A stretch of DNA of 64,000 bases from a bacterium (GTDB taxonomy: Bacteria; Patescibacteriota; Dojkabacteria; JAKAPS01; JAJZLI01). Position numbers and translations under genes: made by a program. How positions within the stretch are numbered: the stretch's first letter is position 1; every line of letters begins with the position of its first letter. The notes under the pieces are model-generated. The model worked only from the letters and a program-made list of their open reading frames with translations. It made no database searches and was not told the origin of the DNA. The stretch covers positions 10,844 to 74,843 of the forward strand of contig DAHXLB010000032.1 of NCBI GenBank assembly GCA_027371855.1, read 5' to 3'. Below are positions 45,591-61,566 of the stretch, one piece after another.

Positions 45591-47258
45591 TTATTCTTTT
45601 ACGACTCTTAATACTTCTTCAAGAGAGGTTATTCCCTCTTCAGCCTTTCTCATCCCATCTTCTATCATTAAACTCATCCCACTTTCTTGTGCTGCTTTTT
45701 GTATCACATTTGCGTTTTCCCTTCTTGCTATGAGAGTCTTTATATCATCCGTTACTTCTAAAACCTCATATATGCCAATCCTTCCCTTATATCCGTTTGT
45801 ACAATACTCACAACCTTGAGGTTTAAAAAACTTAGCTTGTGTGATTTTTTTAGTAACACCTTTTTTAGTATATTGCTCTTCTAATATACCTATTAGTTTT
45901 TTATCTAAAGAATATTCCAGTTTACAATTATTACAGAGTTTTCTAACTAATCTTTGAGCTATTATAACATTTAAGGTGGAAGATACTAAAAATGATTCAA
46001 TATGCATATCTATAAGTCTTGGTATAGCCCCAGATGAATCATTAGTGTGAAGTGTTGATAAAACTAAATGTCCTGTCATTGCTGCATTTATTGCAATATC
46101 TGCAGTCTCAGTATCTCTAATCTCTCCTACCATTATTACATCAGGATCTTGCCTTAAAAATGATCGTAACCCAGATGCAAAAGTAAGCCCTATATTTGCA
46201 TTTACCTGGGTTTGGTTTACCCTTGGCATAGAATATTCAATAGGGTCTTCAATAGTATCTAAGTTCACTTCTGGTGTATTTAATTCTGATAATACTGTAT
46301 ATAATGTTGTACTTTTCCCTGACCCAGTTGGTCCTGTTACAAGAATCATTCCAACAGTTCTTTTTATTGCATCTTCAATAACCGACAGATCTCTCCCGGT
46401 CATACCTAAACTCTCTAAGCTATATTCTTTTGCATTATCTTCAAGTAATCTCATAACTAATACTTCTCCAGAATATACAGGCATGATAGAGACTCTAAAA
46501 GATATATCTCTATCACTTATTGTTGATTTGAATCTTCCATCTTGAGGGAGTCTGTGTTCATCAATTTTTAAATTTGCTAGAATTTTTATCCTTGCAAGTA
46601 CTGCTTGGTGTACCGCAAGGGGATAAGTAGCCTGATCATGAAGTATACCATCTATTCTATACCTTACTATTGCCTCAGTTTCCATTGGTTCTATATGAAT
46701 ATCAGATGCTCCCATGGTTTTTGCATACTCAAGTATGGTATCAGTAATATTTATAATGGGTAGAGCTTCAGTCTCTCCTGACTTGACGTTTTTAGATTCT
46801 TTGGCATTCTTTTCAATTATATCTTTAAGCTCTTCTTTTATGGATGTTTTGTAGAACTTAAGTCCTTCATAAAAAGATTTTTCTGTTATAAAATATGGGT
46901 CTATGTTATATCCAGTACCTTTTTTTATAAACTCGATGGTATTTATATCTCTTGGATTTGTCATCCCTATTTTTAAAGTTGAAGTTGTTTTGTCAAATGC
47001 TACTATCTTTTTTTCTATTGCTGTTTTTTCAGGAATTATCTTTACAACCGCCGGGTCTATGGTTTTATGTGCTAGGGAGATATAAGGAATACTAAGTTCA
47101 GTCTCTACTATCTCGCCCAATTTATCTTCCGTGATAGTATTTTGAGCTATCAATAAATCCTCAACAGAAGTATTTAACTGTTTTGCCTTTTCTTCTAATT
47201 CTGTATAAAGGCTTTCTGATATATAATTTTTAGATATTAATATATTTTTTAGATTCAT
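45591..47258 (-). CDS. pilB: type IV pilus assembly ATPase PilB (GspE family)
   Basis: Walker A VTGPTGSGKSTTLYTVL, with Asp box, His box and a tetracysteine motif (CNNCK...CEYCTNGYKGRIGIYEVL). It has an N-terminal GSPII-like domain. Confidence 0.9.
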   Translation of the reverse strand: MNLKNILISKNYISESLYTELEEKAKQLNTSVEDLLIAQNTITEDKLGEIVETELSIPYISLAHKTIDPAVVKIIPEKTAIEKKIVAFDKTTSTLKIGMTNPRDINTIEFIKKGTGYNIDPYFITEKSFYEGLKFYKTSIKEELKDIIEKNAKESKNVKSGETEALPIINITDTILEYAKTMGASDIHIEPMETEAIVRYRIDGILHDQATYPLAVHQAVLARIKILANLKIDEHRLPQDGRFKSTISDRDISFRVSIMPVYSGEVLVMRLLEDNAKEYSLESLGMTGRDLSVIEDAIKRTVGMILVTGPTGSGKSTTLYTVLSELNTPEVNLDTIEDPIEYSMPRVNQTQVNANIGLTFASGLRSFLRQDPDVIMVGEIRDTETADIAINAAMTGHLVLSTLHTNDSSGAIPRLIDMHIESFLVSSTLNVIIAQRLVRKLCNNCKLEYSLDKKLIGILEEQYTKKGVTKKITQAKFFKPQGCEYCTNGYKGRIGIYEVLEVTDDIKTLIARRENANVIQKAAQESGMSLMIEDGMRKAEEGITSLEEVLRVVKE

Positions 47259-50419: not shown

Positions 50420-50998
50420 TTATTCCCCTATAAAACCTTTGTCAGTTCTTTTAGGATATTGCCGTGGAAATACCCCAAAGATGTTACCTTGGAATTCTGA
50501 GTTTGAATGATCTACATTTGGTTCACGGCTCCTATTTTCAATAAATGAATTAAATACATCATTTCTTACTACAATTGCATCTCTGGAGTTATTCCTTATC
50601 CTAGATAGATAAACCTTTCCAATAAGATGCTTTTTAGTTTCATCGTTTAGTATAGTGAGAACTGAGTATTGAAAATCTTCTTCTATTCTTCTTATGGTAG
50701 CAAGTTTCCGAGTTAAGAATCTTTTTTTGATTTCATTCGGAGATATTGTTATGTACCCTTCTGGGATATCCATAGCCGATATTCTATCAAGTCCGTTTAG
50801 GCCATCTCTTATCATGGCTGCTCTCTCTGCAATTTGTCTCCACTTAGTATATAGAGTTTGATCTTTTGGTCCAGTTCTTAAATCTATTATTGGTGGGGTT
50901 ACAGGCCAATATATTTCAGCTTCACATAATTGTTCTTGTGGTATTTCTTCATTCATTACGATAAAGACATTATAGTATATATTATAATTTAACGTCAA
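50420..50998 (-). CDS. hypothetical protein
   Basis: 192-aa ORF with no TM segment and no recognisable motif. Confidence 0.35.
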   Translation of the reverse strand: MTLNYNIYYNVFIVMNEEIPQEQLCEAEIYWPVTPPIIDLRTGPKDQTLYTKWRQIAERAAMIRDGLNGLDRISAMDIPEGYITISPNEIKKRFLTRKLATIRRIEEDFQYSVLTILNDETKKHLIGKVYLSRIRNNSRDAIVVRNDVFNSFIENRSREPNVDHSNSEFQGNIFGVFPRQYPKRTDKGFIGE

Positions 50999-51076
50999 GA
51001 ATAGTTGTTTCTATAATGAATAAAACAACAATAAAGACTTTTATTAGATGGCATTTTATGCTATCTTAATATCAAG

Positions 51077-52852
51077 ATGAACGAGAAACAACATTCAATT
51101 CCTCAAAATATAATGAGTATACAATTTAAGCTTATAGGGAATATGTCTATGAGGCAATTTCTTATAATCGCCACTCCTTTATTTATTGGTTTTATAATGT
51201 ATGTTATAAAAATAAGTAATTATATAACGGTACCGTTTACTGCCATATTTCTTCTTTCAGCTCTTGCTATAGCATTTGTTCCTCTTGATGACAGACCTTT
51301 AGATGAATGGATTACAAACTTTATAGTCGCAATAAGAAACCCTACACAAAGAATTTGGAAAAAAAATGAAGTAGTCCCTAATATTCTTAAGATCGACAAG
51401 CCTAGTGTTAGTAAAACTAATAATAAAAAAGATATTGCAATGTTTCTATATCAGTCTCCCTTTGATAATTCACTAAACTCAGTTAATGAAGATGCTGTAG
51501 ATAACGCCCTTGATGTAAAGGAGAAGACTTTAATTGCAAATATTGATAAGATAAATAGTATGATATCTAGTGGATCTACAAGTGCCTCTGTGCCTACTAA
51601 AACTTTGGGGAGTGATTTGTTTCAGCAAGAATCTCATTCGAGTGGAGTAGGAAGCTCCGTGCCTTCTCCTTCACCTATATCTGGAAATTCAGCACAAAAT
51701 GGTGATTTTAAAGAAACAACTCCTATAGAGGATCTCGTAAGTCCAATTATTCCAGAAAGTCCTACACCTAAAACTTCAAATGACCGGGATAAAGATAGTG
51801 AAGATAGTAAAATACCTCAATATAATCCTTTTAACATAAGCAATATCACTCCAGTCTCTGCAGCAGAAGAAGTCAAAGCTGCTGGCAATCCAAATATTAG
51901 AGAAGATTTTCTAAATACAGGGATTCAACAAGAAGCATCTGTCCCCGGTCAGATGGAGAATCCTTTTCAAGATATTATTAATCAAATTAATCCTCAAAAT
52001 ACATCATCTTCCAAGGTAATATCACAAGAACAAACTACAGAGTCTGAGACTATGCCATCAGGGGATACTCCGGAAATAAAAGCACCAAGCGTAGTCTTGA
52101 ATGGTGGGACTAAGGATGACAATGATTCTCAAAGTCCTGATTTATCTCAAAATACATCAAGTAACACTCAAGTTGAGCCACCTCCCGAATTCCAAACAGG
52201 TACAACTGCTAACTCTGAGAATAATTCTAGAGAAGAAGAGCTTAATAAAATATTAACAAGGATACAATCATTAGAAGAAGAAAACCAAAAGCTTAAATCT
52301 GAACTTGCAGGGCAATCTGTCTCAACAGAACAAGCTGAATCAAAAGTTTCAAATTTGTCTCCAAAAGAAACTCCTGTACAAACTCAAGAACCAGTTCAAG
52401 AACCAGTTCAAGAACAAATTGCTGAGTCAACACAAACCCAAACTGTAATACAAAAAGGAGATAATAATCCTGCTCAAGAAAATCCCAATCAAGCTAGCCA
52501 AGACCAATCCATTAGTCTTACTAGGCAGCAGTTAATTGATCACCTTCCAGAATTTACAAAAGTCCCTAATGTTGTAGCAGGGGTAGTTATTACTGGTGAT
52601 GGGAAGATATTAAATAATGCTATTGTTATAATCAAAGATACAAATCAAAAACCAGTTAGGGCCGTAAAAACAAATCAACTAGGACAATTTTTTACAAGAA
52701 CTCCCTTACCATCTGGAAGATATGATATCGAAGTTGATGCAGCAGGGTATAAATTTAATACTGCAACAATAGAACTTAATAATCAAGTAATACCTCCTTT
52801 TATGTTTATACCTACATCTGAGGGGGAGCAAAAAAATATTAGCGGAATGTAA
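51077..52852 (+). CDS. PrgI/VirB3-like two-TM N-domain fused to a long S/T/P/Q-rich linker and a C-terminal CarboxypepD_reg-like beta-sandwich domain
   Basis: The N-terminus IQFKLIGNMSMRQFLIIATPLFIGFIMYVI...VPLDDRPLDEWITNFIVAIRNPTQRIW parallels the PrgI family (F.GLT.RQF...P.. and FW..P..R.Y). The C-terminus GVVITGDGKILNNAIVIIKDTNQKPVRAVKTNQLGQFFTRTPLPSGRYDIEVDAAGYKF matches a carboxypeptidase-regulatory-like domain. A PVQE x3 repeat lies in the linker. Confidence 0.5.
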   Translation: MNEKQHSIPQNIMSIQFKLIGNMSMRQFLIIATPLFIGFIMYVIKISNYITVPFTAIFLLSALAIAFVPLDDRPLDEWITNFIVAIRNPTQRIWKKNEVVPNILKIDKPSVSKTNNKKDIAMFLYQSPFDNSLNSVNEDAVDNALDVKEKTLIANIDKINSMISSGSTSASVPTKTLGSDLFQQESHSSGVGSSVPSPSPISGNSAQNGDFKETTPIEDLVSPIIPESPTPKTSNDRDKDSEDSKIPQYNPFNISNITPVSAAEEVKAAGNPNIREDFLNTGIQQEASVPGQMENPFQDIINQINPQNTSSSKVISQEQTTESETMPSGDTPEIKAPSVVLNGGTKDDNDSQSPDLSQNTSSNTQVEPPPEFQTGTTANSENNSREEELNKILTRIQSLEEENQKLKSELAGQSVSTEQAESKVSNLSPKETPVQTQEPVQEPVQEQIAESTQTQTVIQKGDNNPAQENPNQASQDQSISLTRQQLIDHLPEFTKVPNVVAGVVITGDGKILNNAIVIIKDTNQKPVRAVKTNQLGQFFTRTPLPSGRYDIEVDAAGYKFNTATIELNNQVIPPFMFIPTSEGEQKNISGM

Positions 52853-52855
52853 ATT

Positions 52856-53539
52856 ATGTCAATATTATCAGATCCTAAAAGGATACCAATAGTAGCAACA
52901 ACTCAAGACCATCTTGATATAGAGGATATAAAAGATAATCTTCTTATTTTAAAGAATGGGAATGTATGTATCGTTATTGAGACTTCTGCTGTAAATTTTT
53001 ATCTTTTATCTGAGATTGAACAAGAGAGTAAGATATATGCATTTGCAGGGTTACTAAACTCTCTAGGCTTTTATATTCAAGTTATGATACACACTGAGAA
53101 TATTGATATATCTAGGTATTTAAAACACCTTGATGAATATAAGTTAAAACAGAAGGACCCTAAAATTAAATACCAGATAGATATTTATAGAAAAAATATT
53201 AAGGATCTGATTGTGAAAAATAATGTTTTGGATAAACATTTTTATATAGTGATACCGTACCTTGCATCTATGCCTAAGAAACCTTCTTTCATAAAACAAT
53301 TTTTTGGTAAACAGGCTAAATTAGGAGATACTACTAAATTGGTTGAAGCTGCAAAAATTAGACTTTATCCAAGAAGAGATCATATAATAAAACAACTTTC
53401 TAGAATGGGCCTTAGATCTAGACAGTTAGAAAGTGCAGATTTGATAAAACTTTTTTATAGTATATATAATCCTATGAATGCTAAAATTAGAGGAGATTTT
53501 GATGAATATACAGGTCCAATAGTTTCTGGATCAAAATAA
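52856..53539 (+). CDS. stand-alone VirB4 N-terminal-domain-like protein (split VirB4, part 1)
   Basis: IPIVATTQDHLDIEDIKDNLLILKNGNVCIVIETSAVNFYLLSEIEQESKIYAFAGLLNSLGFYIQVMIHTENI parallels the extreme N-terminus of proteobacterial VirB4/TrbE (YLPYIGHLSDHIVLLEDGSIMSIARIDGVAFELEEIEMRNARCRAFNTLFRNIADDHVSIYAHLVRH in A. tumefaciens VirB4). No TM segment. An 18-bp gap separates it from the ATPase ORF. Confidence 0.5.
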   Translation: MSILSDPKRIPIVATTQDHLDIEDIKDNLLILKNGNVCIVIETSAVNFYLLSEIEQESKIYAFAGLLNSLGFYIQVMIHTENIDISRYLKHLDEYKLKQKDPKIKYQIDIYRKNIKDLIVKNNVLDKHFYIVIPYLASMPKKPSFIKQFFGKQAKLGDTTKLVEAAKIRLYPRRDHIIKQLSRMGLRSRQLESADLIKLFYSIYNPMNAKIRGDFDEYTGPIVSGSK

Positions 53540-53556
53540 TTATTATAGATGAATAT

Positions 53557-55746
53557 ATGAATCTACCATTTAAGAAACAACAAGGAAACAAAAATAATCA
53601 AGCAGGGGTAGCTAACCAAGAGGTCACTACACAGCCTAGTGATACTCAGACTCCATACACACAGGGAAGCTGGTCTCAAGGGGATTTGCCTCAAGGGGGT
53701 TTGCCTCAAGGAGGCTTACCTCAAGGGATGGGAAGTCTTGATGATCAAACAGCGAAAGATCCGTTGATAGAATTTGGGAATGGAATCAATTCAATTAAAG
53801 ATATTATAGCTCCAGCATCAATTGAAGTAGATTTTTCTCATATTAAAATAGGTGAGAAATACTATAAAACGTATTTTGCAATCGCATATCCAAGATATGT
53901 TGTTCCTAACTGGTTATCGCCATTAATAACATTTGAACACTCTATTGATATAAGTATGTTCTACTATCCTATAAGTTCCAATACCGTTCTTATACAACTA
54001 AGGAGGAAAATTGCTGAAATGGAGGCTACTACAAATACTATGATAGATTCAGGTAAAGTTTTAGACCCTAATTTAAAAGTTGCTCTAGAAGATGCAAAGC
54101 AATTGCAGGATGATCTTGCAAAAGGGTCTGAAAGGTATTTCCATTTTGCTTTGTATGTATCAATAAGAGCAGACACCTTAGAGGAGCTTAATGATATATC
54201 TAAAAATCTTGAGGCTACCTTAGGAGCGATGTCTCTTATTATTAAGCCAGCAACTCTGCAAATGGAAGAAGGTTTCAAATCTACTCTGCCTGAGGGTAGC
54301 GACAAAATGTACTATACGCATAATATGGATACTACATCTATAGCTACAACCTTTCCTTTTGTATCTTCAGAGCTAACATCAGACAGGGGTGTTTTATATG
54401 GTATTAATAAGGCTAATAAGAGTCTTGTGGTTTTTGATAGATTTGATCTTGAAAATGCAAATTCTGTAATTTTTGCAAAGTCTGGAGCAGGTAAAAGTTT
54501 TCTTGTAAAACTTGAAGCTTTAAGATCTCTTATGTTAGGAACCCAGATTATAATAATAGACCCAGAAAGGGAATATGAGACTTTATGTAAGGCAATGAAT
54601 GGATCATATATTTCTTTTTCACAAGATGGAGATTCAAAAATCAATCCATTTGATTTGTCTGGGGTTTATGAAGAAGGAGAAGATGAATTAAGGTTCAAAA
54701 TTCTTTCCTTACATGGACTTTTTAAGGTTATGCTTGGAGGAGAAGAGGGTGGGTTGACTAATATGGAAAATGCTATTTTAGATAAAGCATTAATTTTAAC
54801 ATATAGAGATAAGGGGATAACTTTTGATCCTTCAACGCAGGTAAAGGATCCTCCATTGATGGAAGATTTGTACAAAATCCTTCTTTCAATGGAAGAGGAA
54901 GAGGCTCATTCTTTAGCACAAAGATTAGAGAAATTTGTCAAAGGTTCTGCTTCTGGAATCTTTGATCAACATACAAATGTAGATATAAATAATCAATTTA
55001 TGGTGTTTTCAATAAGAGATTTATCAGATGAATTAAGACCAATAGCCATGTTTTTAATGTTGGACTTCATATGGACAAGAGTTAAAAAAGAACTAAAGAG
55101 AAGATTATTCATAATAGATGAGGCTTGGATATTAATGCAATACCCAGATTCAGCACAATTTGTTTATGCAGTATCAAAAAGAGCAAGGAAGTATTATCTT
55201 GGTCTTACTACTGTATCCCAAGATGTGGATGACTTTTTATCTAATGATTATGGAAAGGCTGTTGTTACAAATTCATCGATACAGATTTTATTAAGACAAT
55301 CTCCTACTGCTATAGACCACCTTTCTGATGTGTTTTATTTATCTGCAGGGGAGAAGAATTTATTGTTGTCTGCAGAAATTGGAGAAGGTATATTTTTTGT
55401 TGGAGCAAACCATGTAGCAATACAAATATATTCTTCAGAGTATGAATATACATTAATAACTACAAATCCAGAAGAAATATTAAAGATGAGAGCAGAAGGG
55501 GCATCATTGGATAGGATAGTTCCAAACACAATAGCAGAAGAAGATAGTAAAACTGTATTAGACGATGATGAAGATGTTAAACCTCAACCTCAAGAGCAAT
55601 CAGAAATATCTCAAAGTAAAGTGTCAGAGCCTCCCAAGGATGTTGAAACTAAAGAGGTATCTGATGAGGATATAGGTAAGGAAACATTAGCTCCAGATAG
55701 TGATGGAGAAAATACACAGGTACAATATAACAGCATTGTTAGTTAG
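53557..55746 (+). CDS. virB4: VirB4/TraC/TrbE-family T4SS ATPase (split VirB4, part 2)
   Basis: APASIEVDFSHIKIGEKYYKTYFAIAYPRYVVPNWLSPL is the VirB4 central-N motif. Walker A VIFAKSGAGKSFLVKLEA, Walker B RRLFIIDEAWILM and ARKYYLGLTTVSQDVDDF are present. LPQGG repeats occur in the N-terminal tail. Confidence 0.85.
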   Translation: MNLPFKKQQGNKNNQAGVANQEVTTQPSDTQTPYTQGSWSQGDLPQGGLPQGGLPQGMGSLDDQTAKDPLIEFGNGINSIKDIIAPASIEVDFSHIKIGEKYYKTYFAIAYPRYVVPNWLSPLITFEHSIDISMFYYPISSNTVLIQLRRKIAEMEATTNTMIDSGKVLDPNLKVALEDAKQLQDDLAKGSERYFHFALYVSIRADTLEELNDISKNLEATLGAMSLIIKPATLQMEEGFKSTLPEGSDKMYYTHNMDTTSIATTFPFVSSELTSDRGVLYGINKANKSLVVFDRFDLENANSVIFAKSGAGKSFLVKLEALRSLMLGTQIIIIDPEREYETLCKAMNGSYISFSQDGDSKINPFDLSGVYEEGEDELRFKILSLHGLFKVMLGGEEGGLTNMENAILDKALILTYRDKGITFDPSTQVKDPPLMEDLYKILLSMEEEEAHSLAQRLEKFVKGSASGIFDQHTNVDINNQFMVFSIRDLSDELRPIAMFLMLDFIWTRVKKELKRRLFIIDEAWILMQYPDSAQFVYAVSKRARKYYLGLTTVSQDVDDFLSNDYGKAVVTNSSIQILLRQSPTAIDHLSDVFYLSAGEKNLLLSAEIGEGIFFVGANHVAIQIYSSEYEYTLITTNPEEILKMRAEGASLDRIVPNTIAEEDSKTVLDDDEDVKPQPQEQSEISQSKVSEPPKDVETKEVSDEDIGKETLAPDSDGENTQVQYNSIVS

Positions 55747-56894
55747 ATTGTCCTTGCTATATAATTTTTAATTATTAAGCTAAATGCTCCAAATATAATA
55801 ATTCCTACGAATATATTGTACAACCCGCCTATTACTGGGATAATACTTATTAAGGATGATATAAATATTCCTGCGAATGCTGATCTGAATCTTATACCTG
55901 CATCCATTCTATATAAATATTTTGTAATGAATGCCCCTAATATTAATCCATTTAACATATATGATAAGAACAATAGTAGCATATAAATTCCCATCAGGAA
56001 TATAGAGATAGGGATTCCTATTATTGTTAGTAATAATATTACTACAACCACAGGCGTTACTATTATCTCTATAAACCCATACCCAAAACTTTTCCATGTT
56101 TTTTCAGTAGTATTTTTTACTACAGATAAAGATAGTTTTGGAAATATCCTTATAAATAATAATACAAATATTATCATAGCAAGGAACATAAGTACTGTCC
56201 TTGCTATGGTAAAGGTAATTTCTCTTTGGTCTTGGTTTGTATAATATCTATATATATGACCTTTGATACTACTTTTATTGACATGGGAGTTTTTATTATC
56301 TGATCCTGTATATGAAAAATATCCTTTTACAGACGATCCTTTGTTTATTTCAACATTATTGGATGATAACTTTAGATTCCCACCAATAATCCCATCTAAG
56401 ATAAAATGCCCAGTATTAACGTATGCATTATGCATTACTTTCCCACCAATGGAGACTTCTCCTCCTAATGCATAGAGGTTGCCATACACAGTAGCATTTT
56501 TTGATATATCTATATTGCCTCCTAAGGAAATCAGGTCTTCTTTAATAATGCCGTTTATAGTAATATTTCCAGAGACAATATAAGCATTATTTAAAACAGT
56601 TCCATTTATTACTGTAGTTCCTGAAAAATCAATAAAATCCTGAAGTATAGTACTATTTATTATAGAATTACTTCCAAAAAATACTGTATCACCTAAAACT
56701 TTATTGTTAACAGAAAGTGAGTTCCCAGCAACATATAAATTACCAGACGATTTTTTATATACATTTACATTTTGGTTATATTGAAGACTTGAGGCATGAG
56801 ATTTTTTAGAAAATAGAAAAGATGCCGAAAAAATACCTGCTGTTACAAATACCAATGCTAATAATACAGAAAATGTTGCTACTTTATTTTTCAT
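55743..56894 (-). CDS. beta-helix-repeat (bactofilin/DUF4097-like) protein with N-terminal anchor and C-terminal multi-TM domain
   Basis: A signal/TM is followed by repetitive G-x-hydrophobic segments (VAGNSLSVNNKVLGDTVFFGSNSIINSTIL...GNITINGIIKEDLISLGGNIDI), then 4-6 TM helices. Confidence 0.45.
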   Translation of the reverse strand: MKNKVATFSVLLALVFVTAGIFSASFLFSKKSHASSLQYNQNVNVYKKSSGNLYVAGNSLSVNNKVLGDTVFFGSNSIINSTILQDFIDFSGTTVINGTVLNNAYIVSGNITINGIIKEDLISLGGNIDISKNATVYGNLYALGGEVSIGGKVMHNAYVNTGHFILDGIIGGNLKLSSNNVEINKGSSVKGYFSYTGSDNKNSHVNKSSIKGHIYRYYTNQDQREITFTIARTVLMFLAMIIFVLLFIRIFPKLSLSVVKNTTEKTWKSFGYGFIEIIVTPVVVVILLLTIIGIPISIFLMGIYMLLLFLSYMLNGLILGAFITKYLYRMDAGIRFRSAFAGIFISSLISIIPVIGGLYNIFVGIIIFGAFSLIIKNYIARTI

Positions 56895-56970: not shown

Positions 56971-57021
56971 TTGACATTTTTTATAACTCATCTATAATAG
57001 ACATATTTAACTCATCTATAA
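56971..57021 (+). promoter_or_regulatory. strong sigma70-type promoter (TTGACA-N16-TATAAT) upstream of the second T4SS module, with a 13-bp direct repeat AACTCATCTATAA x2
   Basis: TTGACA at 56971-56976 and TATAAT at 56993-56998. The AACTCATCTATAA repeat occupies 56985-56997 and 57009-57021. The ATG of the first gene is at 57028. Confidence 0.5.
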
Positions 57022-57027
57022 AACATT

Positions 57028-57279
57028 ATGCAAATACCTGGGCTTTCACAATTTGTTTCAAATATAGCTTCTTTACTAGTAACTACTGTAGAGACAGTGT
57101 TGTTAGTTATAGTAATAATACTTGGGATTCAATTTATTTTAAATGCAGATAACCCTCAAGAGAGGTCTAAACTTTTAAGGAGAATAATCTGGATAATGAT
57201 AGGTCTTTTTATTGTTCTTAGTGCTACTAGTTTAACGACGTTTATAAATGGGATTGTTAATTCGGGGACTGTCTATTAA
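57028..57279 (+). CDS. small two-TM hairpin membrane protein (VirB2/TrbC-like pilin candidate)
   Basis: 83 aa with two hydrophobic helices separated by NADNPQERSKLLRR. It is the first gene of the module and overlaps the VirB6-like gene. Confidence 0.35.
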   Translation: MQIPGLSQFVSNIASLLVTTVETVLLVIVIILGIQFILNADNPQERSKLLRRIIWIMIGLFIVLSATSLTTFINGIVNSGTVY

Positions 57280-58168
57280 TTTATTATTTCTTTTTCTACT
57301 AGCATCTCCTATATTTGCTCAAGGTCAAAATATTGGAGGAGGGTGCTCTGGAGAGACATCATATTCTTTTGAAGGAGTAGTTTGTTCCTTAGGCTATATA
57401 ATAGATCAATTTACAGAATATACTCCTAATATTTTAAAACCAGGGGGAGGTGCTTTTGAAGGCGCTGCTATTTCTAACTATAGAAACGGGACTCAGTATC
57501 TTGCAATTTCAATTCTGCCTGTAATAATCCTTGTTTATGTTATACATTTAATTGGAGAAGCAACTGTGGGGAAGACCAATTTATCTCCCTCTGATTTATT
57601 GGGGAGTCTTTTTATTTCTGTTATATTCCTGTTTACATCGATATACTTTTTATCTTTCTTCATAACTTTTATAAATGTTATAGACCAATTCATAGTTGTT
57701 CATATGATAGGAGGGAGCTCAAGTTTATTCTCTACTATTATAAATACCATGGGGGCTCAGTCTCTGCAAATAGGGATATTTTCAGGAATTGTATCAATAA
57801 TACTGTATATACTGCTTATTATAGCCTTATTCATATTTTCCCTGCAGTTTATTATAAGATTCATTATGTTATGGATTTTAATCCTTTTATTCCCTATTTT
57901 TGTTGTTATATCTATATATCCACCCATGAGGGATTTATTACCCAATGCTTTTTCTAAAATAGTACAGCTTTTATTTATTCAACCAGCATTTCTTATTGGA
58001 ATTTCTGTTTTTGTAGTAATAGTGAATAATTATTCCATAGGGAATTTAGAAAGATTAATACTTGGAATTATAGTACTATTTTCTCTTTCATTGGTTCCTC
58101 AATTACTTGGAGGTGTTATTAACGAAAGGATATTTTCTCTGTCATCTAAAATGAAATCTATAATATAA
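57248..58168 (+). CDS. VirB6/TrbL-like polytopic membrane protein
   Basis: Signal peptide (LLFLFLLASPIFAQG) and a Cys-containing ectodomain, followed by at least six TM helices including LILLFPIFVVISIYPPMRDLLPNAFSKIVQLLFIQPAFLIG. Confidence 0.55.
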   Translation: MGLLIRGLSINLLFLFLLASPIFAQGQNIGGGCSGETSYSFEGVVCSLGYIIDQFTEYTPNILKPGGGAFEGAAISNYRNGTQYLAISILPVIILVYVIHLIGEATVGKTNLSPSDLLGSLFISVIFLFTSIYFLSFFITFINVIDQFIVVHMIGGSSSLFSTIINTMGAQSLQIGIFSGIVSIILYILLIIALFIFSLQFIIRFIMLWILILLFPIFVVISIYPPMRDLLPNAFSKIVQLLFIQPAFLIGISVFVVIVNNYSIGNLERLILGIIVLFSLSLVPQLLGGVINERIFSLSSKMKSII

Positions 58169-58569
58169 TGGATAAGGTAAAAGTTTATAAAATAAAAAGC
58201 TTAAGAAATAATTATTTCTATATAACATCTGATATTTTTGTTGTGCTATTTTCAACACCTCCACTATTTGTTTTGATAATATCTTCTCTTGATATACATA
58301 TAAAAATATTCTTAGGTTCTTCTATTGTAGCCCTTTTTTATTTTCTAATAAAACAAAATTTTAGAGGTAGGCCTACATATTTATATATACTGGATCTACT
58401 TAAATATTTATTTAAAAATAAAAAATATATTTTCTTATACAATATTTTTGAAGTAGATTTACAAGAATCACTGATTCCAGAATCAATGATTCCCAAAATC
58501 AAAGTTCAATACTTAAAATTTTTAAATAATAAAATTAGTTTTAAAGGGGCTGGTCCCAAAGAGTCATAA
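58168..58569 (+). CDS. PrgI/VirB3-like small membrane protein
   Basis: 133 aa with two TM helices after a basic N-terminus. GRPTYLYILDLLKYLFKNKKYIF resembles the PrgI C-terminal motif. It sits directly upstream of the split VirB4. Confidence 0.4.
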   Translation: MDKVKVYKIKSLRNNYFYITSDIFVVLFSTPPLFVLIISSLDIHIKIFLGSSIVALFYFLIKQNFRGRPTYLYILDLLKYLFKNKKYIFLYNIFEVDLQESLIPESMIPKIKVQYLKFLNNKISFKGAGPKES

Positions 58570-58573
58570 TAAT

Positions 58574-59137
58574 ATGAAGAGAATTAATGAATTTTACCCA
58601 ATAATTGATGTTGTTGGAGGAACAATAATTCTAAAAGATCATTTTTATATGAGGATAATAGAAATTTTCCCTTTACATTTTGTATTATCAGAGGAAGATG
58701 TAAAGAATGATTTCATAAAAAAGTACAAAGAATTTTTAAAAGGGATACATATACCAATAGATATAACAGTAGTATCTAGGGAAATAGAAGAAAGTGAAGT
58801 TTTGAAATATATAAAAAATATTAAAGGACCTAGGGCCACAGGACCTGGGTCCAAAGGATCTAGATCTAAATCTGGAGAGATAAATTTACAAAAATTATAT
58901 AAAGACAGTTTTAAAATATTTTATAAGCAAAATAAAATTTATTCTCAAAGATTTTTTATAACGTATAAAATAAAATATCCCAGGAAACATTTATTTTTTA
59001 AAAAGGAATTAGACAATATAGACAATTCTTTGAAAATACATGATAAACAAATTTTATTCTTACTTTCTAAAACTCCACTACGTACAAAAATTATAAATAC
59101 AAGAGGAGAAATTATTAATATTTTAAGTTTTATATAA
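58574..59137 (+). CDS. stand-alone VirB4 N-terminal-domain-like protein (split VirB4, part 1, paralogue of 52856..53539)
   Basis: YPIIDVVGGTIILKDHFYMRIIEIFPLHFVLSEEDVKNDFIKKYKEFLKGIHIPIDITVVSREI is clearly alignable with 52856..53539. It contains an in-frame palindromic-repeat insertion (KGPRATGPGSKGSRSKSGE). The stop is 3 bp before the ATPase ORF. Confidence 0.5.
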   Translation: MKRINEFYPIIDVVGGTIILKDHFYMRIIEIFPLHFVLSEEDVKNDFIKKYKEFLKGIHIPIDITVVSREIEESEVLKYIKNIKGPRATGPGSKGSRSKSGEINLQKLYKDSFKIFYKQNKIYSQRFFITYKIKYPRKHLFFKKELDNIDNSLKIHDKQILFLLSKTPLRTKIINTRGEIINILSFI

Positions 59138-59140
59138 ATT

Positions 59141-60766
59141 ATGATTAAAAAGATAAGGGTAAACTTTAAAGGTTCAGAGGATGTTTTATTTCCAAGGTTA
59201 ATAACTGAAAAGCAAAAATATATAAAAATAGATAGTAGGTTTTATAAAATGTATTATCTGCATGACTTTCCTCAAGATGTTACACAATTTTATTTTTCTG
59301 ATTTTCTCAATTTGAATTCAAATATAACAATAAGACAATTTTTACAGCCCATTGATAAAAAAGCCTTACTTCAAGGTATAAAGATGAGGATTGCTGCACT
59401 ATCCACAAAAAGGCATAAAAGGATTTCTTCAGGTAAAATTAGGGATATGTCACTGGATGTTGAGATTTCAAATCTAGAAGATTTTAATTTATCTATTGTA
59501 AATCAAGAAGAAGAGGGAGTATTGTTTGGTATAGTTATTGCTATATCTGAAAATTCACAATCAAAATTAGATATTTCTTGTAAAAATTTTGAACTTTTTG
59601 CTGGATCACGTAGTTTCAAATTTTACCCATTAGATTTAAGGCAAGCAGAAGGTTATAAATCACTACTACATTCATCTTATTCCGATATATCTTTGCCAAC
59701 AATTATTAATCTTAATACAGTAGCAGCATCTACTCTGTTTACATCTAATAACCTTATTGATTTTACAGGAATAATATATGGAATAAATGTTAATACTAAA
59801 TCTATTATAGCTTTTGATATATTTAAATTTGAGAACTATAACGCAGTTGTATTTGCAAAGTCTGGAGCTGGAAAAAGTTTTTTTGCAAAAACTGTTATTC
59901 TGAGGATGGTATCAAAAGGTATAAAAACTATTGTTATAGATCCAGAAGGTGAATATTTGAATCTTGCAAAAAACCTGAATGGAAAGATACTTAAACTGAG
60001 TCATGATTCAATGTTTCATATAAATCCATTTGATTTAACTAAGAATGAGAATGTTGAAGAGAAGATACAATTTTTAAAAGGTTTTTTAAAACGTGCCTGT
60101 AGTTATTATGATAAAAACGAAATAGACAGAGCCCTAATTAAAGTATATAAGGAATATAAAACTCCTACATTTGTTGATTTATATAATATCCTTTTAAAAT
60201 CAAAGGCCCGAGTGGCAGATGAGATATACAATATAGCCTTGGGTACCAATGCTTCCTTGTATGCTCAAAAGACAAATATAAATATATCTTCCAATGACGA
60301 TTTAATTGTTTTTGATATTTCAAATTTAGATAATGAAAACATATCATTGATGATGTACCTTGTTTTAAATTTTATATGGAATATGCAAGATGGAAAAACT
60401 CAAAGAGAGATTTTTATTGATGAGGCACACAGGTTATTTGAAAATATGGATCTGGTTAATTATTTAAAAACAATTTCAAAAAGAGCAAGGAAATATAATT
60501 TTGGAATTTTCTATATAACTCAAGATGTGGAGGATTTTATTGTAACAGAACAAGGAAGGTCAATTATTGCGAATACATCACTTAAGGTATTGTTAAAACA
60601 GGAAAAAATAAACATACCTGGATTGTCACGCTCCTTCTCTCTCTCTGGTGATGAAAAAAATTCTTTATTGAAATTTGATATAGGGGAAGCTTTGATTATA
60701 GCTAAAGATATTCATATAAACAGTAAAATATTTGCATTTGATTTTGAAAAAGATTTTTTCGCATAG
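59141..60766 (+). CDS. virB4: VirB4-family T4SS ATPase (split VirB4, part 2, paralogue)
   Basis: FPRLITEKQKYIKIDSRFYKMYYLHDFPQDVTQFYFSDFL is the VirB4 central-N motif. Walker A VVFAKSGAGKSFFAKTVI, Walker B REIFIDEAHRLF and ARKYNFGIFYITQDVEDF are present. Confidence 0.8.
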   Translation: MIKKIRVNFKGSEDVLFPRLITEKQKYIKIDSRFYKMYYLHDFPQDVTQFYFSDFLNLNSNITIRQFLQPIDKKALLQGIKMRIAALSTKRHKRISSGKIRDMSLDVEISNLEDFNLSIVNQEEEGVLFGIVIAISENSQSKLDISCKNFELFAGSRSFKFYPLDLRQAEGYKSLLHSSYSDISLPTIINLNTVAASTLFTSNNLIDFTGIIYGINVNTKSIIAFDIFKFENYNAVVFAKSGAGKSFFAKTVILRMVSKGIKTIVIDPEGEYLNLAKNLNGKILKLSHDSMFHINPFDLTKNENVEEKIQFLKGFLKRACSYYDKNEIDRALIKVYKEYKTPTFVDLYNILLKSKARVADEIYNIALGTNASLYAQKTNINISSNDDLIVFDISNLDNENISLMMYLVLNFIWNMQDGKTQREIFIDEAHRLFENMDLVNYLKTISKRARKYNFGIFYITQDVEDFIVTEQGRSIIANTSLKVLLKQEKINIPGLSRSFSLSGDEKNSLLKFDIGEALIIAKDIHINSKIFAFDFEKDFFA

Positions 60767-60768
60767 AG

Positions 60769-61566
60769 TTATTTTACAAGCACAGCCTTAACTATGTATC
60801 TTTGAGTTCCAATACCTGGAGGTATACACGTCATAAGAGTAAGGTACTTTTTATTCTTTGATGCTGCTAGTACAGAAAAATCAGTAGGTTGAACTACTCT
60901 TGCTGTAAAGACCTTATACGTATATGTTATTCCTTTAAATTTTAGATAAATTAAATTTCCATTACTTAATTTTAATATGTTTGTGAAAATGCCAAGGAAA
61001 GAGCTGGGATATAAGTCGGCAAACCATTGGGGAGCAGAGTGACCATAGACATAAACATTTCCAGTTTCTCCAGGAAGAGCAGTCCCTTGCATTTGCGCAA
61101 GTGAATTTACAAGAACATGCTCATAGGCTTGTGTATTAAACCCGTCAACATTTGTTTTTACTGGGACATTATTAAGGTTTATAGTAGGAATGGAAAGGTA
61201 AAAATATCCTTTATAGCTTGAATCATTCTTTAGAGTTTGACTATTGATTATTTTTGTAAAATATGAGGATGATGGGTCTGCGTTTACTATAGCACTCTGA
61301 TATTTATGAAGAAGGTTTGTGTCTATATAATATTTAATAAGTGGAGATGCAGCTATAAACACAAAAAATCCTCCTATAACTATTAAAAATATAGATCCAT
61401 AATTAAATCGCAATTTTCTCTTCTGGAAGAGCCTTTTCTTTTTAAATCCTATCTTTGGCATTCTGAAGTATCTAGATACAAGATTCGTTTGGCCAAAAGG
61501 CATTTTAACCCTAAAAATTAAATTTTTTCTGGAGTGGATTTCTTTTACGTACATGTACTTTGCCAT
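60769..61566 (-). CDS. sortase-family transpeptidase
   Basis: N-terminal TM (IFLIVIGGFFVFIAA), a His region (NVYVYGHSAP), the catalytic TLMTC motif and a downstream conserved Arg (QRYIVKAVL). Confidence 0.7.
   Translation of the reverse strand: MAKYMYVKEIHSRKNLIFRVKMPFGQTNLVSRYFRMPKIGFKKKRLFQKRKLRFNYGSIFLIVIGGFFVFIAASPLIKYYIDTNLLHKYQSAIVNADPSSSYFTKIINSQTLKNDSSYKGYFYLSIPTINLNNVPVKTNVDGFNTQAYEHVLVNSLAQMQGTALPGETGNVYVYGHSAPQWFADLYPSSFLGIFTNILKLSNGNLIYLKFKGITYTYKVFTARVVQPTDFSVLAASKNKKYLTLMTCIPPGIGTQRYIVKAVLVK

What the first reader, a model, noticed from the sequence alone, without database searches (positions are those of the whole stretch)
51077..52852. VirB3/PrgI-like membrane anchor fused to a ~380-aa disordered linker and a carboxypeptidase-regulatory-like beta-sandwich domain
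PrgI/VirB3 proteins are normally ~100-130 aa and entirely membrane-embedded. Here the 2-TM PrgI-like N-terminus (MSMRQFLIIATPLFIGFIMYVI...RNPTQRIW) is followed by an S/T/P/Q/E-rich low-complexity region with PVQE x3 repeats, and then a C-terminal CarboxypepD_reg/transthyretin-like fold (GVVITGDGKILNNAIVIIKD...GRYDIEVDAAGYKF). A surface-exposed Ig-like domain tethered to a T4SS inner-membrane component could be an adhesin or spacer that spans the cell envelope, possibly standing in for the missing VirB10-like component.
Basis: inference. Interest (0 to 1): 0.6.

Follow-up and report, generated by a model that had tools for sequence, protein, structure and literature searches.

The report
Extended VirB3/PrgI subunit of Patescibacteria secretion machine
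This gene encodes the small membrane subunit (VirB3/PrgI) of a type IV secretion machine of an ultra-small Patescibacteria bacterium, here carrying a long floppy tail that ends in a conserved beta-sandwich knob. The same design recurs in over a thousand related protein clusters, but the knob probably sits inside the cell beside the motor ATPase, not on the surface as first proposed.

Summary
ORF 51077-52852 (591 aa) has a PrgI/VirB3 N-terminus and a C-terminal CarboxypepD_reg domain, both above Pfam's cut-offs. About 395 mostly disordered residues join them.

It is not a one-off. A family profile finds 1279 clusters (50% identity) at E<=1e-30, and 156 of 158 sampled members carry both domains. 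The linker is hypervariable (86-576 aa, median 180). The pattern scan confirmed 468 relative-encoding stretches in GTDB species genomes; the informatively named ones are mostly Microgenomates-group Patescibacteria. In 72 of 80 loci the order is PrgI-ext, TrsD (the split-off VirB4 N-domain), VirB4.

The interpretation as a surface adhesin or VirB10 stand-in is not supported:
- No member has a third transmembrane helix or a signal peptide.
- The hairpin core is fixed at 43 aa with a tiny uncharged loop and K/R-rich flanks.
- VirB3 proteins have both termini in the cytoplasm.

The knob is therefore most likely cytoplasmic, tethered next to the TrsD/VirB4 ATPase as a docking or regulatory module. 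That function is inferred, not shown.

No paper found in the held library describes this architecture. I rate it a new variant of a known kind, of moderate interest.

The parts
51077..52852 (+). Whole gene: extended PrgI/VirB3 subunit (591 aa), here called PrgI-ext
   Evidence: ORF. The identical protein P0001 is in NCBI/ENA, and full-length homologues have the same two Pfam domains.
51098..51352 (+). PrgI/VirB3 module (residues 8-92): conserved N-tail, TM hairpin and post-hairpin helix
   Evidence: PF12666, 29.9 bits against a cut-off of 27. 87 of 89 family members match PrgI. Invariant H6, P9, Q10, F17, G21, Q27, F28, F67, P89, T90, W94.
51149..51277 (+). Transmembrane hairpin: TM1 residues 25-44, 3-residue loop, TM2 residues 48-67
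   Evidence: Kyte-Doolittle 19-mer means up to 2.26 and 2.37. AF2 helices with pLDDT about 90. The core measures 43 aa in nearly all of the 111 members analysed, with an uncharged loop.
51281..51358 (+). Post-hairpin conserved motif P-x-(D/E)(D/E)-R-P-L-(D/E)-x-W ... P-T-x-x-x-W with helix 75-87; presumed contact with TrsD/VirB4 on the cytoplasmic side
   Evidence: Nearly invariant P69, R73, P74, W78, F82, P89, T90, W94. It lies inside the PrgI profile match. The role is inferred from the R388 VirB3-VirB4 structure (PMC9259494).
51359..52543 (+). Linker, residues 95-489: acidic, S/P/T/N/Q/E-rich, mostly disordered
   Evidence: pLDDT below 50 for most of it. Net charge -29 over 384 aa. Family linker length is 86-576 aa, median 180, with composition P 10.6, T 9.1, S 8.8, Q 8.7, E 8.0%.
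51488..51568 (+). Helix, residues 138-164, within the linker
   Evidence: AF2 helix, pLDDT 75-86. The family consensus shows a weak L..E...L..I...F pattern at this position.
52223..52315 (+). Leucine-zipper-like helix, residues 383-413; specific to this lineage
   Evidence: AF2 helix, pLDDT about 90. Weak coiled-coil Pfam hits. Found in only 12 of 158 members.
52384..52415 (+). In-frame 12-nt tandem repeat, 2.7 copies (QEPV)
   Evidence: Tandem Repeats Finder, 100% matches.
52544..52822 (+). C-terminal transthyretin-like / CarboxypepD_reg beta-sandwich, residues 490-582
   Evidence: PF13620, 34 bits against a cut-off of 32.3. pLDDT 92-98. Foldseek matches to carboxypeptidase D/N/M domains, CnaB and transthyretin. 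Invariant or nearly invariant P491, N498, G502, R528, A529, N533, G536, F538, T542, P543, L544, G547, Y549, F560, P574. It is always at the extreme C-terminus.
52856..53539 (+). TrsD-like protein (227 aa): the split-off N-terminal domain of VirB4. It starts 3 nt after the PrgI-ext stop codon.
   Evidence: NCBIfam VirB4_plasma profile positions 104-233 and TrsD/TraD family. PF26593 TraC-like, faint. Follows PrgI-ext in 75 of 80 loci.
53557..55746 (+). VirB4 ATPase a (729 aa), with low-complexity N- and C-terminal tails
   Evidence: NCBIfam CD1110 VirB4-like, 398 bits; Pfam P-loop_TraG. A 15-nt repeat in 3.5 copies lies at 53675-53727.
57028..57279 (+). VirB2-like pilin (83 aa)
   Evidence: Precomputed PF18895 T4SS_pilin / PF04956 TrbC. 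ORF.
57248..58168 (+). VirB6/TrbL-like polytopic membrane protein (306 aa)
   Evidence: Weak PF04610 match, E 0.0024.
58168..58569 (+). Second VirB3-like protein of canonical length (133 aa, TcpE-like)
   Evidence: Weak PF12648 TcpE match, E 0.0066. Not significantly similar to PrgI-ext by BLASTP.
58574..59137 (+). Second TrsD-like protein (187 aa)
   Evidence: BLASTP against the first TrsD: E 0.001, 22% identity over 136 aa, in register.
59141..60766 (+). VirB4 ATPase b (541 aa)
   Evidence: NCBIfam CD1110, 248 bits.

Best explanation
The gene encodes the VirB3/PrgI subunit of the chromosomal, monoderm-type (MPF-FATA-like) type IV secretion system of a Patescibacteria bacterium. It is a lineage-typical extended form.

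Shown:
- The first ~95 residues are a bona fide PrgI module: a conserved N-tail, a 2-helix membrane hairpin and a conserved post-hairpin helix.
- The gene is the first of a tightly packed, conserved trio: PrgI-ext, then TrsD (the split VirB4 N-domain), then the VirB4 ATPase.
- The C-terminal ~95 residues are a strongly conserved transthyretin-like beta-sandwich.
- The segment between them is a hypervariable, Pro/Thr/Ser/Gln/Glu-rich flexible tether.

Inferred:
- As in other VirB3 proteins, both ends of the hairpin face the cytoplasm.
- The N-module would clamp the TrsD/VirB4 ATPase ring to the membrane, one copy per ATPase protomer and six per machine by analogy with R388.
- The tail would hang into the cytoplasm and present the beta-sandwich as a tethered 'ball on a chain'.
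- That ball would bind a partner at or below the ATPase ring. The partner could be a substrate or adaptor to be fed into the channel, or the ATPase itself as a regulatory cap. These loci show no coupling protein or VirB11 next to VirB4, so this may be the job those proteins do elsewhere.
- Linker length would be free to vary because only reach matters, not structure.
For: - Domain identity: (PrgI in 87 of 89 members, CarboxypepD_reg in 85 of 89).
- Family size and constancy of the architecture: 1279 clusters at E<=1e-30; 156 of 158 have both domains; 468 confirmed relative-encoding stretches in GTDB species genomes.
- Operon: 72 of 80 loci have PrgI-ext, TrsD and VirB4 on one strand. Median gap is about 8 nt and 4-nt overlaps are the commonest spacing.
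- Topology: only two TM segments in the family. The hairpin core is 43 aa in nearly all measured members, with K+R of 0.43 in the loop against 1.84 (N flank) and 5.0 (C flank). There is no signal peptide; 24 polar residues precede TM1.
- Literature: VirB3 has two TM helices with cytoplasmic N- and C-termini, and PrgI is 117 aa and modelled 1:1 on PrgJ/VirB4 (PMC12857230). VirB3 wraps the N-domain of VirB4, six copies per machine (PMC9259494). VirB3-VirB4 fusions exist (PMC12624023).
- Composition is not a marker of export. The certainly cytoplasmic VirB4a of the same operon carries similar Q/P/E/S/T-rich tails with an in-frame repeat.
- The transthyretin-like fold also occurs in cytoplasmic enzymes: 5-hydroxyisourate hydrolase and the pyrogallol transhydroxylase beta subunit are among the Foldseek hits.
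- The Saccharibacteria orthologue SEML1_0010 is annotated 'PrgI family', is 300 aa and essential, and has the same gene order with a different, helical C-terminal extension (PMC10633639 supplementary tables). C-terminal extensions on PrgI therefore recur in the phylum.
Against: - No topology was measured, and no dedicated predictor (DeepTMHMM) was available. The argument rests on hydropathy, the positive-inside rule and homology.
- Most characterised CarboxypepD_reg and CnaB-type domains are extracytoplasmic.
- Pro/Ser/Thr-rich acidic linkers are also typical of wall-spanning regions of monoderm surface proteins.
- A few members have linkers with long coiled-coil-like stretches (P/G-free runs up to 262 aa), reminiscent of surface fibrils.
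- No binding partner of the beta-sandwich is identified. No co-folding could be run.
- A T4CP could be encoded elsewhere in the genome, as PMC12102498 reports for many Patescibacteria.
Confidence: 0.6

Rival explanations
1. The linker and beta-sandwich lie outside the cell. The tail spans the cell wall and S-layer, and the knob acts as an adhesin or a wall or host-surface anchor around the T4SS pilus. It would substitute for missing VirB8/VirB10-like envelope-spanning parts.
For: - The fold is closest to extracellular modules: carboxypeptidase D/N/M domains, CnaB pilin domains and SdrD B repeats (SdrD_B and Big_1/Big_6 hits in single members).
- The Pro/Thr/Ser-rich variable linker and the rare long coiled-coil stalks look like wall-spanning or fibrillar regions.
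- VirB8 and VirB10 homologues are largely undetected in Patescibacteria (PMC12102498).
- These T4SSs carry pilins and are needed for epibiotic growth (PMC10633639).
Against: - It needs an N-out/C-out hairpin or a third membrane crossing. No third TM exists in 158 members.
- The segment after TM2 (P74-W94) is too polar to span the membrane.
- Charge bias favours both flanks inside.
- VirB3 termini are cytoplasmic in the literature, and VirB3 can be fused to VirB4 (PMC12857230, PMC12624023, PMC9259494).
- There is no signal peptide and no LPXTG sorting signal, although a sortase gene lies nearby.
- There is no VirB10/TrbI or VirB8 profile match.
Confidence: 0.2
2. The tail is cytoplasmic, but the beta-sandwich binds no substrate. 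It would be a structural or assembly element, for example oligomerising under or around the VirB4 ring. Alternatively the acidic tail would act as an entropic bristle that spaces machines or excludes ribosomes and the nucleoid.
For: - Six copies per machine are expected by analogy with R388 (PMC9259494).
- The linker is strongly acidic in this protein, net -29.
- A lineage-specific leucine-zipper-like helix at 383-413 could pair tails.
Against: - Linker charge is not conserved. Only two thirds of family linkers are net negative, with a median of -5.
- The zipper helix occurs in 12 of 158 members.
- The family-specific, nearly invariant PVRAxKTNxLGQF segment in the C-domain suggests a specific binding surface, not a passive mass.
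Confidence: 0.15
3. The fusion is an artefact. A misassembly or a missed stop or frameshift would have joined a small PrgI gene to an unrelated CarboxypepD_reg gene.
For: Short 'PrgI only' database entries exist.
Against: - The same architecture is in 156 of 158 diverse representatives and in 80 of 80 fetched loci.
- The identical 591-aa protein is found in two independently deposited assemblies, one in ENA and one in NCBI.
- The short entries are contig-end partials or come from frameshifted low-coverage assemblies.
Confidence: 0.01

Closest known systems
PrgI of Enterococcus faecalis pCF10 / VirB3 family (Pfam PF12666; TrwM of R388, VirB3 of Agrobacterium)
   Same: The N-terminal ~95 residues match the PrgI profile above Pfam's cut-off. 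They form a 2-helix membrane hairpin with a conserved N-tail and post-hairpin helix. The gene lies directly upstream of the VirB4 genes.
   Different: PrgI is 117 aa and VirB3 proteins are 10-15 kDa (PMC12857230). This protein is 591 aa, with a ~395-aa tether and a conserved beta-sandwich that canonical members lack.
SEML1_0010, 'PrgI family protein' of Southlakia epibionticum ML1 (Saccharibacteria), essential for epibiotic growth (PMC10633639)
   Same: It is a Patescibacteria chromosomal T4SS subunit with PrgI at residues 5-90. It is extended to 300 aa. The gene order is the same: PrgI, then a ~290-aa hypothetical protein, then VirB4.
   Different: The supplementary table of that paper assigns its C-terminal extension helical ECOD matches, not a CarboxypepD_reg beta-sandwich. 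I did not compare the sequences directly.
Natural VirB3-VirB4 fusion proteins (Campylobacter plasmids, CagE; cited in PMC12624023 and PMC12102498)
   Same: In both cases the polypeptide continues beyond the VirB3 hairpin into a soluble domain. In those fusions that domain is necessarily cytoplasmic.
   Different: Here the appended domain is a transthyretin-like sandwich on a long tether. VirB4 itself is split into TrsD and an ATPase, encoded as separate genes. PMC12102498 found no VirB3-VirB4 fusion in Patescibacteria.
VirB10 / TonB-type envelope-spanning proteins
   Same: A membrane anchor is followed by a Pro-rich extended region and a C-terminal globular domain.
   Different: VirB10 and TonB have one TM helix (N-in, C-out) and a TrbI or TonB_C domain. 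This protein has a hairpin, so both ends lie on the same side, and it has no TrbI/VirB10 match.
FtsK (analogy only, from general knowledge)
   Same: An N-terminal membrane domain is followed by a long, length-variable Pro/Gln-rich cytoplasmic linker and a conserved C-terminal domain. This shows that such linkers occur on the cytoplasmic side.
   Different: There is no homology. The FtsK C-domain is a DNA translocase.

Membership tests
PrgI/VirB3 (PF12666) | Profile match above the curated cut-off | tested here: met
   29.9 bits against 27, residues 8-92 covering profile positions 2-89 of 91. 87 of 89 family members also match.
PrgI/VirB3 (PF12666) | Two transmembrane helices forming a hairpin | tested here: met
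   Hydropathy. AF2 helices 25-44 and 48-67 with pLDDT about 90. A 43-aa core in nearly all measured members.
PrgI/VirB3 (PF12666) | Gene adjacent to virB4 | tested here: met
   TrsD (the VirB4 N-domain) starts 3 nt downstream and the VirB4 ATPase follows. The order is conserved in 72 of 80 loci.
PrgI/VirB3 (PF12666) | Small size (10-15 kDa) with only short cytoplasmic extensions | tested here: not met
   The protein is 591 aa and the family median is about 375 aa. This is the feature that makes it a variant.
PrgI/VirB3 (PF12666) | Both termini cytoplasmic; binds the VirB4 N-domain 1:1 | not testable with these tools
   Only the positive-inside rule and the literature (PMC12857230, PMC9259494) bear on it. 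No multimer modelling or topology predictor was available.
CarboxypepD_reg / transthyretin-like fold (PF13620) | Profile match above the cut-off and a 7-stranded beta-sandwich fold | tested here: met
   34 bits against 32.3. 85 of 89 members match. pLDDT 92-98. Foldseek E about 1e-5 to carboxypeptidase D/N/M domains, CnaB and transthyretin. PDB profile hit to carboxypeptidase M, E 0.0012.
VirB10/TrbI (envelope-spanning T4SS scaffold) | Single N-terminal TM helix, Pro-rich region and C-terminal TrbI beta-barrel | tested here: not met
   No TrbI/VirB10 Pfam or NCBIfam match at E<=1. The protein has two TM helices, not one.
Monoderm surface adhesin (sortase- or membrane-anchored) | Signal peptide or N-in/C-out anchor; LPXTG sorting signal with a hydrophobic tail | tested here: not met
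   24 polar residues precede TM1 and a second TM returns the chain. The C-terminus '...FIPTSEGEQKNISGM' has no LPXTG motif or hydrophobic tail.
Patescibacteria MPF-FATA-like T4SS locus (PMC12102498) | VirB4 with TrsD, PrgI/VirB3, VirB6 and a VirB2-like pilin nearby; chromosomal; no relaxase in the cluster | tested here: met
   All five components are present between 51077 and 60766. They are flanked by housekeeping genes, including HAD, a nucleotidyl transferase, PilB and DnaJ. No relaxase was seen among the ORFs scanned between 37757 and 62814.

The most novel reading that the evidence does not exclude
Despite the hairpin, the tail and beta-sandwich are exposed outside the cell, through an inverted VirB3 topology or an unknown export route. 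Six tethered knobs would then surround the T4SS pilus as the wall-spanning, host-contacting part of a monoderm secretion machine that has no recognisable VirB8 or VirB10.
Probability: 0.15. Interest if true: 0.75.

Novelty: new variant of a known kind. Interest (0 to 1): 0.45.

Why it matters
The T4SS is one of the few machines shown to be essential for the epibiotic life of Patescibacteria (PMC10633639). Its composition is only partly understood: no VirB8 or VirB10, usually no coupling protein next to VirB4, and no known substrate (PMC12102498).

A conserved extra domain on the core subunit VirB3 is a concrete handle on this problem. It is present in more than a thousand protein clusters and always encoded just before TrsD-VirB4. 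Whatever the beta-sandwich binds is a candidate substrate, adaptor or regulator of this machine.

The finding also shows that 'PrgI' counts in Patescibacteria surveys hide at least two different extended architectures. One has a beta-sandwich tail, seen here and mainly in the Microgenomates group. The other has a helical tail, seen in Saccharibacteria.

Tried and rejected
1. **A TM-less version of the tail.** P0011 and P0012 appear to have the coiled coil and the same C-domain without PrgI, which would have argued for a cytoplasmic location. Rejected: the P0012 reading frame is open to base 2 of its contig, so it is N-truncated at a QP/AP repeat.
2. **Short 'PrgI only' relatives with the tail as a separate ORF**. 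Rejected: they are contig-end partials, or come from frameshifted or low-coverage assemblies in which VirB4 is also broken.
3. **Natural fusions of the tail to TrsD or VirB4 as a topology reporter.** None among 158 representatives.
4. **Programmed read-through.** In the window the PrgI-ext stop and the TrsD ATG are 3 nt apart and in frame. Across loci the same-frame fraction is 20 of 74 (27%), which is chance level.
5. **Extra 'reporter' domains in family members.** A Pfam scan of 89 members found only PrgI and transthyretin-like or Ig-like families.
6. **A solved structure for the N-module.** A sequence-profile search of the PDB hit only the C-domain.
7. **Tools and papers not available.**
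   - The primary VirB3 topology paper (Mossey 2010, PMC2876495) is not held, so reviews and the R388 structure paper are cited instead.
8. **Literature on the fusion.** A search for 'carboxypeptidase regulatory-like' with T4SS and CPR terms found no paper containing that phrase. The Patescibacteria T4SS survey does not contain the word 'carboxypeptidase'.
9. **Promoter and terminator scan.** Overall counts equal chance. Only two individual sites are worth noting.
Full report
**1. What is in the sequence**

ORF 51077-52852 (+) encodes 591 aa. Pfam gives two matches above the curated cut-offs:
- PrgI (PF12666): residues 8-92, 29.9 bits against 27.
- CarboxypepD_reg (PF13620): residues 500-568, 34 bits against 32.3.

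Hydropathy finds only two membrane-grade segments, about 25-46 and 48-70. The only other hydrophobic stretch (499-519) is the first strand region of the beta-sandwich.

AlphaFold2 was run with 9 and then 89 family sequences. The results:
- A helical hairpin at 25-44 and 48-67, pLDDT about 90.
- A short helix at 75-87.
- Confident isolated helices at 138-164 and 383-413.
- pLDDT below 50 for most of 167-478.
- A beta-sandwich at 490-582 with pLDDT 92-98.

Foldseek against the PDB aligns that sandwich with the transthyretin-like domains of carboxypeptidases D, N and M, with CnaB pilin domains, and with transthyretin/5-hydroxyisourate hydrolase (E about 1e-5 to 1e-3).

The linker is acidic (net -29 over 384 aa) and rich in S, P, T, N, Q and E. 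It contains a 12-nt in-frame repeat in 2.7 copies (QEPV, 52384-52415).

- The true N-terminus is 22 residues longer than quoted and carries the most conserved residues.
- The linker contains two confident helices.
- The repeat has 2.7 copies, not 3.
- VirB3 proteins are not wholly membrane-embedded.

**2. Context**

The gene opens a T4SS cluster.

| Coordinates | Product | Evidence |
|---|---|---|
| 52856-53539 | TrsD-like protein, 227 aa; starts 3 nt after the PrgI-ext stop | Matches the N-terminal part of VirB4 models and the TrsD/TraD family |
| 55743-56894 (-) | DUF8173 membrane protein | |
| 57028-57279 | VirB2-like pilin | |
| 57248-58168 | VirB6/TrbL-like protein | |
| 58168-58569 | TcpE-like (VirB3-like) protein of canonical length, 133 aa | |
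| 58574-59137 | Weakly TrsD-like protein, 187 aa | BLASTP E 0.001, |
| 59141-60766 | Second VirB4, 541 aa | |

The flanks are housekeeping genes: HAD hydrolase, nucleotidyl transferase, solute-binding protein, PilB-type ATPase, sortase and DnaJ. The cluster is therefore chromosomal.

This is the Patescibacteria T4SS described by Quinonero-Coronel et al. 2025 (PMC12102498): VirB4 with TrsD, PrgI/VirB3, VirB6 and VirB2-like pilins, related to monoderm MPF-FATA conjugation systems and usually without a relaxase. That paper does not contain the word 'carboxypeptidase'.

**3. The architecture defines a large family**

- A word-indexed search found full-length homologues with the same two Pfam domains. 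One is named 'carboxypeptidase regulatory-like domain-containing protein [Patescibacteria group bacterium]'.
- A profile of nine of them, searched against 1.84 billion cluster representatives, gave 2710 hits at E<=1e-3 and 1279 at E<=1e-30.
- Among the 158 sequences in hand, HMMs built from the window's own N- and C-domains hit 156 and 158 respectively.
- Pfam calls PrgI in 87 and CarboxypepD_reg in 85 of the 89 members scanned, with no other recurrent domain.
- The linker ranges from 86 to 576 aa, with a median of 180. The window's protein is at the long end.
- The C-domain is always at the extreme C-terminus.
- Conserved blocks are the N-tail (H6, P9, Q10, F17, G21), the ends of the hairpin (K26-Q27-F28; F67, P69, R73-P74), the post-hairpin P89-T90...W94, and in the C-domain the segment P-V-R-A-x-K-T-N-x-L-G-Q-F.
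- One degenerate peptide pattern recovered 468 confirmed relative-encoding stretches from the GTDB species-representative genome collection. The informative record titles are Woesebacteria, Microgenomates, Chisholmbacteria, Beckwithbacteria, a few Paceibacterota and 'Patescibacteria group'. Many third-party records carry evidently generic labels.
- In the 80 loci fetched, 72 have PrgI-ext, TrsD and VirB4 in that order on one strand. Most of the rest are cut by contig ends.
- The genes are tightly packed, with a median gap of about 8 nt; 4-nt overlaps are the commonest spacing.

**4. Where is the C-domain?**

The evidence for a cytoplasmic location:

1. No family member has a third hydrophobic segment outside the sandwich itself. 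The stretch after TM2 is too polar to cross the membrane.
2. The TM1-loop-TM2 core is 43 aa in nearly all of the 111 members measured. Its loop of a few residues carries 0.43 K+R per 9 aa. The N flank has 1.84 per 20 aa and the C flank 5.0 per 30 aa, including the nearly invariant K26 and R73. By the positive-inside rule both flanks are cytoplasmic.
3. Reviews state that VirB3 proteins have two TM helices and cytoplasmic N- and C-termini, that PrgI is 117 aa, and that it is modelled 1:1 on PrgJ/VirB4 (PMC12857230).
4. In the R388 structure VirB3 wraps the N-domain of the central VirB4, and two of its three helices form the membrane hairpin (PMC9259494). VirB3 is sometimes fused to cytoplasmic VirB4 (PMC12624023).
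5. The linker's composition is not diagnostic of export. VirB4a of the same operon, certainly cytoplasmic, has similar Q/P/E/S/T-rich N- and C-terminal tails with their own in-frame repeat.
6. The fold is found in cytoplasmic enzymes as well as in surface proteins.

Against this:
- Most characterised CarboxypepD_reg and CnaB domains are extracytoplasmic.
- Pro/Thr/Ser-rich tethers suit wall-spanning regions.
- Five of 158 members have linkers with long coiled-coil-like stretches.

I could not run a dedicated topology predictor or multimer modelling. I put the cytoplasmic location at roughly three in four.

**5. Most likely mechanism**

Shown:
- The protein is a VirB3/PrgI homologue encoded in an operon with TrsD and VirB4.
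- It carries a conserved terminal beta-sandwich on a hypervariable tether.

Inferred:
- The N-module anchors the TrsD/VirB4 ATPase ring to the membrane, as VirB3 does in R388, probably with six copies per machine.
- The tail hangs in the cytoplasm and presents the sandwich as a tethered binding module.
- That module would capture a substrate or adaptor for delivery to the ATPase, or dock on the ATPase ring as a regulator.
- Either role fits systems that lack a VirB11 and usually lack a coupling protein beside VirB4.
- Strict conservation of the knob, with free variation in tether length and composition, is the signature expected of such a 'fly-casting' arrangement.

Rivals:
- An external adhesin or spacer (about 0.2).
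- A non-specific structural or entropic role in the cytoplasm (about 0.15).
- An assembly artefact (effectively excluded).

**6. Comparison with what is known**

The protein passes three membership tests for PrgI/VirB3: the profile match, the hairpin, and adjacency to virB4. It fails one: the small size with only short extensions. It passes the tests for the CarboxypepD_reg fold. It fails the tests for VirB10/TrbI and for a sortase- or signal-anchored adhesin.

The nearest experimentally touched relative is SEML1_0010 of Southlakia epibionticum. It is annotated as a PrgI family protein, is 300 aa and essential for epibiotic growth, and is followed by a ~290-aa protein and VirB4. Its extension is annotated as helical rather than beta-sandwich (PMC10633639 supplementary tables). 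Extended PrgI thus recurs in the phylum, in at least two forms.

**7. Novelty and score**

The proteins are in public databases under generic names. No paper in the searchable library connects a carboxypeptidase-regulatory-like domain with VirB3/PrgI or with the Patescibacteria T4SS.

This is a new variant of a known kind: a core T4SS subunit with a conserved accessory domain. It is not a new system. I score interest at 0.45. It is a useful, testable handle on an essential but poorly understood machine, but the function of the domain remains inferred, and the more exciting surface-exposed reading is disfavoured.

Noticed in passing
window 57028-60766: The cluster holds a second, more compact module after the pilin gene: a VirB6-like protein, a canonical-length VirB3-like protein (TcpE-like, 133 aa), a weakly TrsD-like 187-aa protein, and a second VirB4 (541 aa). 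One locus therefore encodes two VirB3/TrsD/VirB4 sets, and only the first has the extended VirB3. Whether the two ATPases form one mixed machine (compare the central and outside VirB4 of R388) or two machines is open.
   Followed up: partly
window 53557-55746 (repeat at 53675-53727): VirB4a carries low-complexity tails: about 60 aa at the N-terminus that are Q/G/P-rich, with a 15-nt repeat in 3.5 copies encoding LPQGG, and about 80 acidic aa at the C-terminus. Their composition resembles the PrgI-ext linker. Disordered tails thus sit on two proteins of the same operon.
   Followed up: partly
window 52850-52858: The PrgI-ext stop codon (TAA) and the TrsD ATG are separated by one codon and are in the same frame. 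Across 74 related loci the same-frame fraction is 27%, which is chance level, so there is no sign of programmed read-through.
   Followed up: yes
window 56971-56998: A perfect sigma-70 consensus (TTGACA, 16 nt, TATAAT; 12 of 12) lies about 30 nt upstream of the pilin gene at 57028. A 10-of-12 site at 50989-51017 lies about 60 nt upstream of PrgI-ext. Overall promoter-like counts in the region equal chance.
   Followed up: no
window 55743-56894 (-): A 383-aa protein on the opposite strand sits between the two T4SS modules. It has an N-terminal hydrophobic segment, a repetitive N/G/S/I-rich region (weak FapA beta-solenoid match; precomputed DUF8173) and a C-terminal polytopic membrane domain. 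Its function is unknown, and its conservation next to the T4SS was not examined.
   Followed up: no
window 37757-44689: A 1454-aa protein with DUF2341 and fibronectin-III/purple-acid-phosphatase-N domains, probably a giant surface protein, is followed directly by an 855-aa single-chain fusion of an ABC ATPase, a MacB periplasmic core domain and an FtsX permease.
   Followed up: no
window 60769-61566 (-) and 45591-47258 (-): A sortase gene abuts the end of the T4SS cluster, and a PilB-type T2SSE ATPase lies 4 kb upstream. PrgI-ext itself has no LPXTG signal.
   Followed up: partly
window 1-64000: ARAGORN finds no tRNA or tmRNA gene in the whole 64-kb window. GC content is 25-39% throughout.
   Followed up: no
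L083 1-260 (relative P0012): In a relative, the linker holds long dipeptide repeats (QP about 10 times, AP about 9 times) at which the assembly broke. It also holds a coiled-coil-like stretch of more than 300 aa. Linkers of this family are repeat-prone and can cause contig breaks and truncated gene calls.
   Followed up: yes
L003-L082 record titles: Many third-party-annotated MAG records carrying this Patescibacteria-type operon are titled 'uncultured Gammaproteobacteria', 'uncultured Pseudomonadales' or 'Bathyarchaeia archaeon'. These look like placeholder or wrong taxonomic labels.
   Followed up: no
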